DNA of 64,000 nucleotides from Trypanosoma brucei (Eukaryota): the NCBI GenBank assembly GCA_000002445.1, contig CP000066.1, forward strand, positions 1,589,226-1,653,225, given 5' to 3'. This document shows positions 3,001-15,000 of this stretch, one piece after another (within the stretch, counting starts at the first letter, position 1; each line of letters starts with the position of its first letter). The position numbers are program-made.

Positions 3001-6000
3001 GCAAAATTATATCACAAGCCCCAAGGAAACACTCGAATACCATTGATCAACCAAAAACGAAGGAATGTCTAATAACATGCAGACAGCCTTCACCAGATGG
3101 GATGTTGAATGCAGAGAGCGTTGGTTGGGAGTATATGGCATGAAAATCGTACGGACGAGAAGCAATCAAAAGTTAAATGTCACCCTTGGTGGTTCGGACA
3201 AACAGTAGTTAAGAAGTGGTAACAAGCACAAAGCGCAAAGAACAAAAGGAAGGGAGAATGATGCCAAAAAGTGAAGATGACGACCGCCGCTGAAGAGCGT
3301 GTGTATGTGACCTACAACCGGAGAAAAAAAAGGAGTCTAGCAAAAAAAAAAACGCAGCAGAGGATGCCGAGTCGAGCTAAGTTAAGGAGGGGGAAATAAA
3401 ACTTGAAGCCAAAAGTACAAACCCGGAGAAGAGTAAATGTTCCCACACACTACCGGGTGATCGATCCGGAGTTAGCACCTAATTTCCGCTAACTCTTTCT
3501 CAAGTTATTACCATATTTTTACGAATATCGTTGTTTTAGCTTGCGAAAATTGTCCCGAAAGTCATCACTAGAACAAGAGTATTTTCCAGCTGCAACACCC
3601 CAAACTGTTGAGAAAAAAAAAGTTGCACCGTCTCACTTATAATAAAAAAATATCAAAAAATATATTGGAATTCAATCAAGAACACCACTTTTCTTCTATT
3701 TATGTTTCCTTTTAAGAAGAGGAGCGATGGAGAACAAATATTTAGTGTGGTGCATGTTTTTTTGTTTAACGGTTGTGGGGGGCAAAGCTAATGCAGTGAA
3801 AACAACGCTAAAGAAAGAAACGAATTGCCACACAACTGTTAAAGCACTGTTCAACAAACGTGAAAACTGTCATGATCTGGCCTCCGATGCAACGAAAATA
3901 AATGAGGATGTTGACATCGGAACAGATGCAGATAGATGGACTGCTTGCACATGGTTAGAATATGATAAGAGGCGTACGGAGACACAATGCATATTGAGGT
4001 TTAACAACACATATGGAGAGAAATTAGTATGCACCTACGAAACAAAGGGCAATCGCCAAGACCTAAGTTGCAAACCAGAGGGTCGTTGCGAAGACGCTCG
4101 CGAGCGGTACCTTTTAGGGGAAGAAGGATGTCCGAAGCCTGCACCACGTGAAGAACCAAAAAGAAACAAAACCGAAAGGTGTCTTGATGAGGTTTATGGG
4201 TCATTCAGCGGTGACCAGGAGTGTGCGAAACTTAAAATAGGAAGCGAGGTCGCCGAGCAAATTATATTCAGGGAGAACGGAGATGACAAAACACCAGAAT
4301 GTATAGAAGCAAGTGGCCCCCCAGAGTCGAAAGTGGTTGGAGAAGCATGCGTAATAAAGTTGCGAACCGAGCCACACCCATCAGAATATATTTGCAAAAT
4401 GGAGGGTTCTGGTGAGGAAAGGAAAATAAAATGCACAAGAGAAACATCGAAAACAGTTCCTCAACCTACGACCACAAGGAAGAGACGAGGCAGTACTGGA
4501 TCCATGCGCAAAAGAAGTGACGACGGTGGTAACACTGAGGTCACCCTGAAAGAAGATAAAGACAAAACACAAGATGAGGATGAAGGCCAAAAAGAAGAAA
4601 GAAAAGAAGAAAGCGGTGAAGAAACTGGTACAGCAAAAGCTCGAATCAAAAGCAAAACTTATTGGAAATCAAATAATCCTATTATCATGCTTTTAACACT
4701 TTCGTTATTGTTGCTTTAATACTGTTTAATAATAAACGGTAATGTAAACTGTTTGGAAGAAAGTATGCTTTTAACGGAGAAGGGAAGTGAGTGTATCAAA
4801 ACATTTTTCTTGTAAGACATACATTAAGGGAACATTTTTATGTTTTTTTTTTGTCACGCGTCACTGCTGTAAAAAAAACTTCTTGCGCTCAAGTTGTATC
4901 GAAAGTATTGAATTTTCAACGATGTTGTTCGGTGGGGAAGGTAAGGGGAATAGGATATATAGTTGTGTCGGGGACGGCGTTCTGTTTGTTGAAAGGGGTA
5001 AAGAGAGGAAAAAACCCTACACCGGGTGAAAGTAACTGACTGATGAAGTTCGTTTGGATCGATAGACAAGTGGAACTCGCCGCAAAAAGGTTGTAACAGC
5101 ATTTAACCGGCACATGCGGCTTAGCGTTTTAGGTTGAGAAATGCACGTATAAAGGCACGGATGCTCAGGAAATACCCTTATTTCTGATAACATAATTGGA
5201 CGCTAAGCTAGAGAAGGCACAACACCAGATTCGAGAATACAACAGAAAAATGACGGGCGATGGCACCGACGAAGAGGAACAATTGAAGCGGGTCGCTGAA
5301 ATCGATAACATCAATGCCCACGGCAGCCTCCTCTCGACGCGCGGACAAAACAAGAAAAAAAAATGCAGCTTCAGAAAAAAAAAAAAATGTTTCTTTGGGA
5401 AACCACTTGAAACTGTTGAGGAAAAGAGGGTTTGCCACGCCCAGCCGCTAATGATAATGTGAAATGGAAATTTACAGTATCCATTTAACCTACAATATCA
5501 TGATTCCTACACCTTTATCATTCTTCCTTTAGCGAAAACAAAATGAGGAAACAACATGTCATATACTACGTATTTTTCTGCTTAGGAGCCATAGGAAGCA
5601 GAGGAGAGACAGAACCAATAACAATACAAAAAGGAACGGAGTGCCACAAAGCATTGGAAACAGCGTTCACCACGCCCAAAAACTGTGAGAATGTAAGCAC
5701 AGCGATAAGCGAAATGCCTGAAAATGTTAGCATTGAAACATTCCCGGGGGCATGGACCGTGTGTCAATTCATGGAAAACGAAAAAGAAAGCACAGTCACG
5801 CAATGCATTTTGAAGTTCGAAAACGCAGAGGGAAATCGAATAGCGTGCACCTACGAAACCGAGGGCGGACAAGGAAACGTAAGCTGCACACAGGAAGTGG
5901 ATGCTCCGGTGGCTTATCATCCATACTGTGAGGGAGCCGAATACGATTATACTTATCATGACGAAAGCCACGGTCATGGGAGCGGGGGCTATGAGCGGCG

Positions 6001-12000: not shown

Positions 12001-15000
12001 AAAGATGGGCAAAAAGATGAAAAGGGTGGGAAAGAAAGGCAAGAAAAGCAAAAAATGGAAAATAATACTGGAAAAAGCAATGAAGCAGCGACAAACACTA
12101 AAACGCAGGCTTCTTCTTGGAAATCAAATAATCCTATTATCATGTTTTTAACACTTTCTTTATTGTTGCTTTAGTATCATTTAATAAACGGTAATGTAAA
12201 CTGTTTGGAAGAAAGCATGCTTTTAACGGAGAAGGGAAGTGAGTGTATCAAAACATTTTTCTTGACAGACGTACATTAAGGGAACATTTTTATTGTTTAC
12301 TTGCCATATTGCACTGCTAAAAAACTTCTCGTGCTGGAGTTGCGTGCGAAGTATTAGATTTCTTCACCGATTCTTTTTTGTAGCGAAGGTAAGGGGAATA
12401 GGATATGTAGTTGTGTCGGGGACGGCGTTCTGTTTGCTGGAAGTGGCAAAGGGAGGAAAAAACAAACAAACTTGTCAGATGGGAGTGGCTTTCAGGAAAA
12501 CCTGTACAGTTGAAACTGGGGAAGGGAAAGTTACGGAAGGATAAAACAAATTGTGTAATCGAATTCGTCGCTGATGATAAAACAAACGAACGGAGTTCAC
12601 CACCCTGAAACCGTAGCTGCGTCTTCCTCCGTCACATACGACACAACAATGTAAGCCTAATGTTGCTGGTATAAGGAAACGCATTGTTGCGCAGGAGACG
12701 CCCACGGCCATGGCAGTTTAATTGGACGCTAAGCCAGCGAAAGAACTATGCCAAACTCGAGAGCACGACAGTGATGGCTGGTGGCGCTCACGAAAATGTG
12801 TGATGGCAGGAACTCGCTGAGTTCAAGATCGTCAATGCCAACGGCAGCATTCCCTCGACACACGGAAGAAATAAGCAAAAAAAGAGATGCTGTACACAAG
12901 CTATATGCCAAAGCCGAACTCAGCCATTGTTGTCATGACGCCAAGCGGGAAAGAGAGCCAACGGCAACTTGCAAATGCAGCGAAATAAGGATCGTTGAGA
13001 AACGACTTGGTGTGGACACCATGGGCGAAAGTTCACAGGCGCAGGAAATACCGGCGGTATATTCGGTGACGAGGCCTATGGTAAAAACCGTCACGCTATC
13101 CTAGCGCAGGTATTGGGGTGATTACGACGCGGGTGAGGGAAATGGGAAGAGGTGCAAAATGTCAGGAAATTCTTGAGAGCGTGCGAATTCTGCAAAGGTA
13201 AAAAGGACAGCAGTCGTTGACATCGGGAACAGAAGGAAGACGCAGCTTTTAACAGAATGCCGGAAGGCGCGAGCACAGCCAAACAAATGGCAAGACGAGC
13301 TGAGAAGGCTACTGGCCACACTCTGAAATGGAAAGCCGCAGCGAGGGTGGGGGGAAACGCGCAGGTTCAGAGAGTTTTACCGGAAGAAGTCGAAAAGATG
13401 GCGAAACCTTCAGGAGTTAAAAATGTTTGGAAAAGGACAAAGCGGAGAAAATATCAGTAGTCGCCGGGAGAAAATGCAGTGGCTGTCTTCGGACTGGTTT
13501 AGTTCGCGTCGCGACAACGACACCTCATATATAAAATTTCCTGAAAATAATGACGATGACGGCGAAAAACTCTTTTAAAACTCTTTTTTTCACAATTCCC
13601 CATTATTTTCATCTATTCCACATAACCTGTAGACGACCATGACTTGAGGTGAAAACCAGTTACACATGGGACGTTCTCGCGTCATTCCTCGTACCGGTTA
13701 TTTCCATCATGTACCGCGAGGGCCATTGCACAGCGCATCATCTTCCGTTGACAGATGTTGTAGTTGGATTCCGTGTCCGGCTGTTTTGAAACGTTACGTC
13801 GGCCACCGTATGCCAGATTCCTCCTTTGTTATTGTTTTCGTTTGTGTAAAAACGCCGATACAGATGCAATTAGCAGCTCCAGTGTGACAATTGGAACAAC
13901 CGATCGTATTTCGTACTTGCTTGTTTGTTTTTTCTGCGAACCTTTCAACGCATCAATCCCATCCTTTGCCAATCTCCACGCTTATGGACCCTTAAGGGGT
14001 CGTGCTATATCAATCTTCCAACACCCGGTCATCACTGTGGATTCCGCCTCCGCCTCTGATGATAACGTTCCGTGCAAAATGTGGCATTTACCCTTTTCTC
14101 GCGCAGTTATTTGCTTAGGTGATCCTTTTCGGCCGGTAGAGTTCCCCGGAATTCCGCTGCGACTCACCTGAGATCAGACCTGTATTCTGCTTAACACCAC
14201 CGATCTCAACATTGAGAGCGCTCTAAAGATACCGAAAGAATCATGTTCGCACGTGCGTGGAGGATCACACCGATGTTTCCCACCATCCTGAAAACCGACG
14301 GTTTCGCCGCTTTCCCTTCTCCCCCGGGCAGGCCGTTACTGTCCGACTGCCGCAATCCTTAAGACGGGATGCGCGCGAACATTTAATCTCCCCGGCTCTC
14401 GAAGATGCACCGGATTCAAACATCGCAATGAGGTGTGTTCAACACTCTGCCATGGGAGTTTGCTCATTAAACGAACTGGTCAGAGTGCTTCCCCAATTCA
14501 CAGACAACTCGGATAAATGCACAGTTTCATTAAACGTGTAGCAGAAAAAATGACTAATGCTTGGCATGCTTCCGTCCAGCATGAAAGCTGCGTACCTTCT
14601 ATCTCCCTTGATCATGCCGAAGGGTCCGTCAGTTGGTTTCAAATATTAGCACTGCCATGCCGCAGAAATACGCAACAATAGGCAACTCTTCCACATCACA
14701 ATGCAATAACTTGTAGAGGATGAAAGAGCCAAAATTCTGAGATTTGCCAAACCCCGGGTTACCAATGGTAAGGTATGCTCGTGGAAAATAAGGACATTCC
14801 GGTATAACACGTTGTGTACGCCATAACTCAATTCCACTTCTTACAACATTCCATACGCGGAACTCTTCTCTACGGATGAATATGTTTTTGTTACTTCCGT
14901 CGGTAAACTTGGCTTATTATCACCTCATTTGAGATGTTAGAACCAATGCTTCAGCTTCTTCCATGCGCTCTGGTTTCTTCTCAACAGCTTCCTCAATTTA

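What the first reader, a model, noticed from the sequence alone, without database searches (positions are those of the whole stretch)
3650..12440. Tandem array of an unrecognised GPI-anchored, cysteine-containing surface-protein gene
Five copies of a roughly 350 aa ORF sit head to tail at an 1878 bp period: one divergent copy and four 99-100% identical copies. The ORF has a signal peptide, about 14 conserved cysteines, N-glycosylation sequons, a K/E/T-rich extended stalk and a GPI-like tail. The divergent copy keeps its frame and cysteines despite heavy substitution, which argues for selection on the protein. I cannot place it in a named trypanosome surface family such as VSG, ESAG1-11, ISG, procyclin, BARP or MSP. 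A multi-copy invariant surface protein array lying between decayed subtelomere and a VSG array is worth characterising.
Basis: partly seen in the sequence, partly recalled or inferred. Interest (0 to 1): 0.8.

Follow-up and report, generated by a model that had tools for sequence, protein, structure and literature searches.

The report
Known trypanosome cysteine-rich surface gene array
The five-gene array is real, but it is the already published Trypanosoma brucei chromosome 3 array Tb927.3.5690-5730 (surface family "Fam6"): it probably encodes lipid-anchored bloodstream-stage glycoproteins, no function has been shown, and other subspecies largely lack it.

Summary
The window is the last 64 kb of T. 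brucei brucei TREU927 chromosome 3. The five + strand ORFs are Tb927.3.5690-5730; published gene coordinates reproduce the window offsets exactly.

- signal peptide
- 14 conserved cysteines in the mature protein
- a 78-residue K/T/E-rich stalk
- a GPI-like tail
- a polypyrimidine tract and AG 10 nt before each ATG

It is wrong on one point. Only three copies encode the same protein. The fourth is a mosaic, 85% identical at protein level, with a sharp 352-nt divergent block. Spacings are 1816, 1878, 1812 and 1880 bp.

The array is not unrecognised. Jackson 2010 described it as cysteine-rich secretory proteins with a single T. b. gambiense orthologue. Jackson 2013 catalogued it as T. brucei-specific Fam6. 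Microarray and spliced-leader data show bloodstream-enriched transcripts. No function or location has been published in what I could search.

No homologue exists outside T. brucei in 1.84 billion representative proteins, in Pfam or in PDB.

What I add:
- the ectodomain is an internal duplication of an orphan six-cysteine domain of about 95 residues
- a hypervariable cysteine-bounded His/Tyr/Gly loop lies between the two domains
- the paralogues are old (dS about 1.1), not a recent duplication
- the gambiense orthologue is frameshifted as deposited

Modest interest.

The parts
3727..4719 (+). Copy 1 = Tb927.3.5690, 'type A', 330 aa. It is the orthologue of the single T. b. gambiense gene Tbg972.3.6170.
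   Evidence: ORF. The gene id follows from the chromosome coordinate 1,592,952 in Jensen 2009 supplement. It is 97.4% nt identical to the gambiense gene, with collinear flanks. It is 46% aa identical to type B.
5543..6604 (+). Copy 2 = Tb927.3.5700, 'type B', 353 aa. Domain 1 is 5618-5902, the Cys-bounded His/Tyr/Gly loop is 5927-6004, domain 2 is 6029-6328, the stalk is 6311-6544 and the GPI-type signal is 6545-6601.
   Evidence: 100% to AAZ10601/XP_844160; coordinate 1,594,768, an offset of 1816.
7421..8482 (+). Copy 3 = Tb927.3.5710, type B. The protein is identical to copy 2.
   Evidence: one synonymous difference. It shares a microarray probe set with .5700 and .5730.
9233..10297 (+). Copy 4 = Tb927.3.5720, a 354 aa mosaic isoform.
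   Evidence: P0002; coordinate 1,598,458, an offset of 3690; own probe set.
9610..9961 (+). Divergent block inside copy 4, covering the loop and most of domain 2. It has 97 differences over about 350 aligned bases, and both flanks are 100% identical to the other type B copies. The sharp edges look like the ends of a gene-conversion tract.
11113..12174 (+). Copy 5 = Tb927.3.5730, type B. The protein is identical to copies 2 and 3.
3688..3716 (+). Polypyrimidine tracts and AG (putative trans-splice acceptor) 10 nt before the ATG of copy 1.
   Evidence: sequence only. SL-tagged transcripts of Tb927.3.5690 are reported in Nilsson 2010.
5521..5532 (+). TTCTTCCTTT-AG acceptor 10 nt before the ATG of copy 2. 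The same element is at 7399-7410, 9211-9222 and 11091-11102.
   Evidence: sequence only.
4658..5015 (+). Conserved 3' end of the CDS plus the proximal 3' UTR, shared by all units. It is 85-88% identical between type A and type B, although the ectodomains are only about 58% identical at nucleotide level.
12113..12463 (+). The same conserved 3' segment in the last unit, marking the end of the array. The gambiense single-copy structure joins the copy 1 body to the DNA downstream of this segment.

Best explanation
Identity. The array is Tb927.3.5690-5730 of T. brucei brucei TREU927 chromosome 3, which is family Fam6 of the African-trypanosome cell-surface phylome. It lies at the last position of the chromosome core that is still syntenic with T. 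b. gambiense, just before the VSG/ESAG/ingi subtelomere.

Protein (inferred from sequence). Each gene encodes a secretory-pathway glycoprotein made of these parts:
- a cleavable signal peptide
- two tandem copies of an orphan domain of about 95 residues with six cysteines, probably three disulfides each (a helix followed by a beta-meander)
- between the two domains, a loop closed by two further cysteines, which is hypervariable and His/Tyr/Gly/Asp-rich in type B
- a disordered K/T/E-rich stalk of about 78 residues
- a C-terminal GPI-addition signal

Expression. This is shown by published data for the transcripts and inferred for the processing mechanism. The genes are transcribed as part of a polycistron. 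Each is matured through its own polypyrimidine-AG splice acceptor 10 nt before the ATG. mRNA is several-fold to 16-fold higher in bloodstream forms, highest in in-vivo slender and stumpy forms, than in procyclic forms, and close to silent in tsetse stages. The 3' CDS and 3' UTR segment conserved across otherwise divergent paralogues is the likely carrier of the GPI signal and of stage control.

Evolution (shown here). There are two old paralogue types, A and B, with dS about 1.1. Type B was amplified to four units that are kept near-identical by gene conversion or unequal crossing-over. One unit retains a divergent central tract.

Function (inferred). I think the most likely role is a low-abundance, host-facing accessory surface glycoprotein of the mammalian stage, acting as a ligand-binding or immune-interaction module raised on a stalk within the VSG coat. 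It would be dispensable and variable between strains. T. b. gambiense DAL972 has only the type A gene, and that gene is frameshifted as deposited.
For: Identity:
- The type B protein is 100% identical to AAZ10601/XP_844160, on a contig of 1,653,225 bp.
- Published gene start coordinates 1,592,952, 1,594,768 and 1,598,458 reproduce the window offsets 1816 and 3690 exactly.
- Fam6 is recorded with 5 members, SP yes, GPI yes, TMH 0.

Architecture:
- Cysteine spacing is 14, 26, 14, 14, 13 in domain 1 and 14, 27, 16, 15, 13 in domain 2.
- MAFFT and hhalign put all six cysteines of the two domains in register. hhalign gives E = 0.014 over 87 columns, though its probability is only 3%.
- Shuffle tests give z = 2.2 to 6.6, and the best pair was reached by 0 of 2000 shuffles.
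- The splice-acceptor motif is.

Expression:
- Jensen 2009 microarray values for cultured BF, slender BF, stumpy BF, log PF and stationary PF are.5690 3962/7380/7967/912/560.5700 6280/8311/9500/2404/582.5720 3853/5758/5966/1311/474.
- Nilsson 2010 SL-trapping lists Tb927.3.5690 as 'up' in long slender versus procyclic forms.
- Savage 2016 lists values of 0.03-2.7 in fly stages.

Selection and evolution:
- dN/dS is 0.40 for A versus B, 0.55-0.58 for B versus copy 4, and 0.35 for copy 1 versus the gambiense orthologue.
- The mosaic tract has sharp edges.
- Both gambiense flanks are collinear with window 658-5012 and 12113-14134. This agrees with Jackson 2010, who found the extra copies absent from the gambiense read library.

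Orphan status: only T. brucei proteins were found among 1.84 billion representatives and in the 5.8-billion-sequence database.
Against: - No protein-level or localisation evidence was found. The gene ids are absent from the held supplements of the Gadelha 2015 bloodstream surface proteome, the Dejung 2016 proteome and the Gunasekera 2012 proteome. Held files may be incomplete, and GPI proteins of low abundance are easily missed.
- The GPI anchor and signal peptide are predictions. Jackson 2010 calls the products 'secretory'.
- The fold is unresolved. AlphaFold gave pLDDT 36 for the whole protein and 46 for the domain, so the disulfide pattern and the helix-plus-meander description are weak.
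- hhalign probability for the internal duplication is low (3%), although the E-value and the cysteine register support it.
- The only gambiense copy is frameshifted and dN/dS is fairly high. Both fit relaxed constraint as well as they fit host-driven divergence.
Confidence: 0.65

Rival explanations
1. The family is an effectively functionless, decaying gene family at the edge of the subtelomere. It is transcribed only because it sits in a polycistron, is translated little or not at all, and its copy number drifts by unequal crossing-over.
For: - The single gambiense gene carries a 1-nt and a 4-nt frameshifting deletion as deposited.
- The type B copies are absent from gambiense and are reported as not duplicated in T. 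evansi.
- The gene ids are missing from three proteomic data sets.
- dN/dS is moderately high, at 0.35-0.58.
Against: - All five TREU927 ORFs are intact.
- All 14 mature cysteines are retained across paralogues whose synonymous sites are saturated (dS about 1.1), and dN/dS is clearly below 1.
- mRNA is stage-regulated 12- to 16-fold, not uniformly low.
- The gambiense frameshifts lie in A-runs and could be sequencing errors.
Confidence: 0.2
2. The products are soluble secreted cysteine-rich proteins released into host blood, not membrane-anchored surface proteins. The hydrophobic C-terminus would be removed without GPI addition, or the anchor would be cleaved.
For: - Jackson 2010 describes them as 'cysteine-rich secretory proteins'.
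- Some T. brucei ESAG9 proteins with GPI-type signals are known to be secreted (my own recollection, not checked here).
- The omega-site context (ASS-WKSNNP) is not textbook.
Against: - The C-terminal 12 residues are strongly hydrophobic (KD 2.9-3.0), end the protein, and are preceded by small residues (S, N). This is the form of trypanosome GPI signals of 17-23 residues.
- Fam6 is scored GPI-positive in Jackson 2013.
- This tail is the best conserved part between types A and B, at 86% nt identity.
Confidence: 0.12
3. The family is a highly diverged offshoot of a known trypanosome surface family such as VSG, VSG-related, ESAG2 or ISG, and not an orphan.
For: - A VSG-related gene (Tb927.3.5680, VR9) lies immediately upstream, and VSG and ESAG1 genes lie downstream.
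- Several T. brucei ESAG families are known to derive from VSG or ISG (Jackson 2013).
Against: - No Pfam model of any trypanosome family matched even at E <= 1, for either the whole proteins or the single domains.
- A full-length profile HMM search of 1.84 billion representative proteins returned only the family itself.
- No PDB sequence matched.
- The predicted secondary structure is largely beta, unlike the helical bundles of VSG and ISG (low confidence).
Confidence: 0.03

Closest known systems
Fam6 of the African trypanosome cell-surface phylome (Jackson et al. 2013), which is array Tb20 (Jackson 2007) and the chromosome 3 'cysteine-rich secretory protein' array (Jackson et al. 2010)
   Same: These are the same genes, Tb927.3.5690-5730. 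The published record gives 5 members, T. brucei-specific, signal peptide and GPI predicted, bloodstream-enriched transcripts, a single orthologue in T. b. gambiense, and 2 unique isoforms.
   Different: Nothing differs in identity. Features I did not find in the papers read:
- the two-fold six-cysteine domain repeat
- the hypervariable Cys-bounded loop
- the exact mosaic tract in Tb927.3.5720
- the saturated dS between the types
- the frameshifts in the deposited gambiense gene
Other T. brucei-specific GPI-predicted bloodstream families held in strain-variable tandem arrays: Fam1 (Tb927.6.1310-1390) and ESAG9 (Fam2)
   Same: - They are restricted to T. brucei.
- They have a predicted signal peptide and GPI signal.
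- Their expression is biased to bloodstream or stumpy forms.
- They form tandem arrays present in TREU927 but reduced in T. b. gambiense and T. evansi.
   Different: No sequence similarity was detected by any search here. Fam6 has its own cysteine pattern and stalk.
Invariant surface glycoproteins ISG65 and ISG75 (Fam49)
   Same: They are bloodstream-stage, multi-copy, non-variant proteins thought to sit within the VSG coat. ISG65 transcripts fall in the same bloodstream-up class in the same data sets.
   Different: - ISGs are type I transmembrane proteins with a cytoplasmic tail. Fam6 ends in a bare hydrophobic tail.
- ISGs are helical bundles and are conserved in T. congolense and T. vivax.
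- No Pfam or HMM similarity was found.
Apicomplexan six-cysteine surface proteins (Toxoplasma SRS/SAG1, Plasmodium s48/45 6-Cys)
   Same: The resemblance is in architecture only: tandem domains with six cysteines each, GPI anchor, multi-gene, fast-evolving host-interface proteins.
   Different: - No Pfam SRS or s48/45 match was found.
- The domain is about 95 residues, against about 120-130.
- The cysteine spacing differs, and an N-terminal helix is predicted.
- I treat this as convergence at most.

Membership tests
Fam6 (cell-surface phylome) / Tb927.3.5690-5730 | Same genes: chromosome 3 of TREU927 at the published coordinates | tested here: met
   The protein is 100% identical to the TREU927 protein on the 1,653,225-bp contig. 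Published starts 1,592,952, 1,594,768 and 1,598,458 give offsets of 1816 and 3690, which equal the window offsets 3727 to 5543 to 9233.
Fam6 (cell-surface phylome) / Tb927.3.5690-5730 | Five members, signal peptide, GPI signal, no internal transmembrane helix, T. brucei only | tested here: met
   Five ORFs. N- and C-terminal hydrophobic segments only. No homologue outside T. brucei. Table S1 of Jackson 2013.
VSG and VSG-related (Pfam Trypan_glycop, VSG_B, Trypan_glycop_C) | Match to the VSG N- or C-terminal domain models | tested here: not met
   No match at E <= 1. True VSGs in the same window score 1e-21 to 5e-46.
ISG65/75, ESAG1, procyclin, BARP/GARP, MSP/gp63 | Match to the Pfam model of the family; for ISG also a transmembrane helix plus a cytoplasmic tail | tested here: not met
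   Scanning all of Pfam-A produced no such match. The protein ends at the hydrophobic tail.
Apicomplexan 6-Cys (s48/45) and SRS | Match to the s48/45 or SRS domain model; beta-sandwich of about 120 residues | tested here: not met
   No Pfam match for whole proteins or single domains. The fold itself could not be tested because model confidence was too low.
CAP/CRISP cysteine-rich secretory proteins | CAP domain (Pfam PF00188) | tested here: not met
   No match. The phrase 'cysteine-rich secretory proteins' in Jackson 2010 is descriptive, not a family assignment.
GPI-anchored proteins (as a class) | Omega site with small residues, short spacer, C-terminal hydrophobic stretch, and an experimentally shown anchor | tested here: inconclusive
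   The sequence features are present and a published prediction is positive. No GPI predictor was available here and no experimental evidence was found.
Surface-exposed bloodstream-form proteins | Detected on the cell surface by labelling or tagging | not testable with these tools
   The gene ids are absent from the held supplements of Gadelha 2015. The Shimogawa 2015 surface proteome is not held.

The most novel reading that the evidence does not exclude
Fam6 may be the founding example of a structurally new module restricted to T. brucei: two six-cysteine domains, GPI-anchored, expressed in the bloodstream stage. In this reading the type B His/Tyr/Gly/Asp-rich disulfide-closed loop (CEGAEYDYTYHDESHGHGSGGYERRC) binds a host factor or a metal. 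The presence, absence and copy number of type B genes would then contribute to differences in host range or virulence between T. b. brucei and T. b. gambiense or T. evansi.
Probability: 0.12. Interest if true: 0.65.

Novelty: already known. Interest (0 to 1): 0.3.

Why it matters
Non-variant proteins exposed in the bloodstream-form coat are rare and are sought as receptors, drug-entry routes and vaccine candidates. A family confined to T. brucei, up-regulated in the mammalian stage and present or absent between subspecies is a reasonable candidate for strain-specific host interaction.

That point was already made in 2010 and 2013, so the array itself is not a discovery. What remains open, and could be tested cheaply, is whether the protein reaches the surface, what its orphan six-cysteine domain looks like, and what it binds.

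Tried and rejected
- Tandem Repeats Finder found nothing because the period exceeds its 500-nt limit. The repeat finder and blastn were used instead.
- Pfam scans of whole proteins and of single domains gave only sub-threshold noise: Hid1, DUF6037, L19e_C, Phage_blade.
- PDB sequence searches with the full-length and domain profiles gave nothing, or Yth1 at E = 0.5.
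- The exhaustive profile HMM search of 1.84 billion representatives found only the family itself.
- The word-indexed searches found only P0001, P0002 and P0004.
- The domain-level profile search returned nothing, not even the parent proteins, so it is uninformative.
- AlphaFold2 with the 3-sequence alignment gave pLDDT 36. With the 5-sequence alignment that puts domain 1 and domain 2 together it gave pLDDT 46.
- A Foldseek search of PDB with the latter model gave only E >= 0.3 and TM <= 0.32 (metallo-beta-lactamases, ribosomal proteins). I treat that as meaningless. I ran no further search on such a model.
- The look-up of encoding contigs had no record for the TREU927 proteins.
- I first suspected that the gambiense 'single copy' was an artefact, because the assembly ends 2 kb after the gene. 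I rejected this because that last 2 kb matches the DNA downstream of the TREU927 array, and Jackson 2010 found no type B reads.
- The 299-300 aa minus-strand ORFs over each type B copy were rejected as shadow ORFs. They start with TTG, have no counterpart over copy 1, and lie on the pyrimidine-rich strand.
- Proteome and surface-proteome supplements held no entry for these genes. Shimogawa 2015 is not held.

Full report
**What is there**

Window 3650-12440 holds five intact + strand ORFs:
- 3727-4719 (330 aa)
- 5543-6604 (353 aa)
- 7421-8482 (353 aa)
- 9233-10297 (354 aa)
- 11113-12174 (353 aa)

Long direct repeats give start-to-start spacings of 1816, 1878, 1812 and 1880 bp. The repeat ends at about 12443-12463. 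Tandem Repeats Finder was silent only because the unit is longer than its 500-nt limit.

Copies 2, 3 and 5 differ by one synonymous change. Copy 4 is identical to them at both ends, but it differs at 97 positions across window 9610-9961 (about 350 aligned bases). Its protein is therefore 85% identical to theirs. Copy 1 is 46% identical in protein.

**Where it is**

The type B protein is 100% identical to a T. brucei brucei TREU927 hypothetical protein (AAZ10601/XP_844160) on a contig of 1,653,225 bp. The supplementary table of Jensen et al. 2009 gives these chromosome 3 start coordinates:
- Tb927.3.5690 at 1,592,952
- Tb927.3.5700 at 1,594,768
- Tb927.3.5720 at 1,598,458

In that table .5700.5710 and .5730 share one probe set and .5720 has its own. 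The offsets of 1816 and 3690 bp equal those between window 3727, 5543 and 9233. The five ORFs are therefore Tb927.3.5690-5730. The window is chr3:1,589,226-1,653,225, the last 64 kb of the chromosome.

Downstream lie a VSG_B fragment, ESAG1, an ingi reverse transcriptase and a-type VSGs on the minus strand. Upstream is the VSG-related gene Tb927.3.5680.

**It is already described**

- Jackson 2007 lists the array as Tb20, with Ds 0.41 and Dn 0.22.
- Jackson et al. [quoted passage not shown] It is homologous to a single gene, Tbg972.3.6170, in T. b. gambiense. The first gene of the array is the orthologue. The other copies are absent from the gambiense read library and 55.1% identical to the orthologue. 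Their Table 1 records a unit of 1803 bp, 5 copies and 2 unique isoforms.
- Jackson et al. 2013 catalogue it as T. brucei-specific Fam6: example Tb927.3.5700, 5 members, signal peptide yes, GPI yes, no transmembrane helix.
- Carnes et al. 2015 note that the duplication Tb927.3.5690-.5730 is absent from T. evansi STIB805 and from DAL972.

I found no paper that gives a function, a location or a name beyond this.

**Expression, from published data**

| Gene | Cultured BF | Slender BF | Stumpy BF | Log PF | Stationary PF |
|---|---|---|---|---|---|
| .5690 | 3962 | 7380 | 7967 | 912 | 560 |
| .5700 (with .5710, .5730) | 6280 | 8311 | 9500 | 2404 | 582 |
| .5720 | 3853 | 5758 | 5966 | 1311 | 474 |

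These are the Jensen 2009 microarray signals (BF bloodstream form, PF procyclic form).

- Spliced-leader trapping lists Tb927.3.5690 among transcripts robustly up in long slender versus procyclic forms (Nilsson 2010 Table S2). SL-bearing mRNA therefore exists for at least the uniquely mappable copy.
- In tsetse-stage RNA-seq the listed values are 0.03-2.7 (Savage 2016).
- At the sequence level, every copy has a polypyrimidine tract followed directly by AG, 10 nt before the ATG.
- I found no protein-level evidence. The ids are absent from the held supplements of Gadelha 2015, Dejung 2016 and Gunasekera 2012.

**Protein anatomy, from the sequence**

- The N-terminus is a typical signal peptide. 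SignalP values are quoted.
- Fourteen cysteines of the mature protein are invariant across the three TREU927 isoforms and the gambiense protein.
- They fall into two sets of six with nearly the same spacing. Positions 34, 48, 74, 88, 102, 115 give gaps of 14, 26, 14, 14, 13. Positions 171, 185, 212, 228, 243, 256 give gaps of 14, 27, 16, 15, 13.
- MAFFT aligns the two halves of all isoforms with all six cysteines, a Phe and a Glu in register.
- hhalign gives E = 0.014 over 87 columns, with a low probability of 3%.
- Shuffling gives z = 2.2-6.6, and for the best pair 0 of 2000 shuffles reached the observed score.
- I conclude that the ectodomain is an internal duplication of a six-cysteine domain of about 95 residues.
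- The two remaining cysteines close a loop between the domains. That loop is the most variable part. Type B has CEGAEYDYTYHDESHGHGSGGYERRC, copy 4 has CGEHGSDHGYDNGYDGYNGVAYGELGC, and type A has CEDARERYLLGEEGC.
- A 75-78 residue stalk follows. In type B it is K 19%, T 15%, E 10%, with 8% hydrophobic residues.
- Then come small residues and a terminal 12-residue hydrophobic stretch (KD 2.9-3.0). This is the form of a GPI signal.
- N-glycosylation sequons are present but not conserved between the types.

**Homology and fold**

- Pfam gave nothing above noise for whole proteins or single domains.
- PDB sequences gave nothing.
- A full profile search of 1.84 billion representative proteins returned only the family itself.
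- The word-indexed database holds only three clusters, all T. brucei.
- AlphaFold2 was not confident: pLDDT 36 for the full length and 46 for the domain alignment. Both models suggest a helix followed by a four-strand meander in each half.
- A Foldseek search of PDB with the domain model found nothing meaningful.

The domain is an orphan and its fold is unresolved.

**Evolution**

- Types A and B have saturated synonymous divergence (dS about 1.1) with dN/dS 0.40. Type B versus copy 4 has dN/dS 0.55-0.58. The protein is under purifying selection, but that selection is not strong.
- The depth of the A/B split means type B is an old paralogue, not a recent TREU927 duplicate.
- By contrast, the last 27 codons and the proximal 3' UTR are 85-88% identical between the types. 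This could reflect conversion, or constraint on the GPI signal and on regulatory sequence.
- The gambiense locus (FN554966, L001) is collinear with window 658-5012 and then with window 12113-14134. The join lies inside that conserved 3' segment. This is exactly the product expected from unequal recombination that removes copies 2-5, and it rules out an assembly truncation.
- Copy 1 and its gambiense orthologue are 97.4% identical, against a genome-wide coding average of 99.2%, with dN/dS 0.35.
- The deposited gambiense sequence has a 3-nt deletion, a 1-nt deletion and a 4-nt deletion. The last two break the frame. They may be real or may be errors in A-runs.

**Most likely mechanism**

- Shown: the identity of the genes, the array structure, the mosaic tract, the orphan status, the bloodstream-biased mRNA, and the presence/absence difference between subspecies.
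- Inferred from sequence: secretory entry, disulfide-rich two-domain ectodomain, disordered stalk, GPI anchoring, and processing of each unit through its own splice acceptor.
- Inferred from analogy with other bloodstream-stage non-variant surface proteins: a host-facing accessory role that is dispensable in some lineages.

Rivals are a functionless drifting family (0.2), soluble secreted products (0.12) and a diverged offshoot of a known surface family (0.03).

**Verdict**

But it rediscovers a published, catalogued and still uncharacterised family. Novelty: already known. Interest is modest at 0.3. It rests on the open function and on the structural points added here.

Noticed in passing
window 1-64000: The window is exactly the last 64 kb of TREU927 chromosome 3 (1,589,226-1,653,225). 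The T. b. gambiense DAL972 chromosome 3 assembly ends at the equivalent of window 14134. The array is therefore the last gene locus still syntenic between the two subspecies before the subtelomere.
   Followed up: partly
L001 10001-10985 (T. b. gambiense FN554966): The only gambiense family member, Tbg972.3.6170, is frameshifted as deposited. It has a 1-nt deletion at nt 173 and a 4-nt deletion at nt 869-872 of the copy 1 alignment, both in A-rich runs. NCBI flags the protein as low quality. This could be a real pseudogene or a sequencing error.
   Followed up: partly
window 5582-6481, 7460-8359, 9272-10174, 11152-12051 (minus strand): Antisense ORFs of 299-300 aa overlap each type B copy. They start with TTG and have no counterpart over copy 1. 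They look like shadow ORFs of a purine-rich coding strand, not genes.
   Followed up: partly
window 519-1687: ORF fragments lie in three different + strand frames (519-851, 1060-1266, 1283-1687). The last one ends in a hydrophobic GPI-like tail. This may be the 3' part of the VSG-related gene Tb927.3.5680 (VR9), or a decayed copy of it. Pfam gave no significant match.
   Followed up: partly
window 8970-9095: The intergenic region upstream of copy 4 is 66 nt shorter (750 versus about 816 nt) and locally divergent. It is a second mosaic patch, separate from the one inside the copy 4 coding sequence.
   Followed up: no
window 13000-22000: GC and AT skew change sign at about 14 kb and back again at about 22 kb. 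This suggests that the + strand transcription unit carrying the array ends just after it, at a convergent strand switch.
   Followed up: no
window 36981-63841: Typical subtelomeric content:
- VSG_B fragment at 36981-38081
- ESAG1 at 39510-40484
- ingi-type reverse transcriptase ORFs at 44305-47651
- a-type VSG genes on the minus strand at 52222-53667, 56737-58170 (weak match) and 59367-60872
   Followed up: partly
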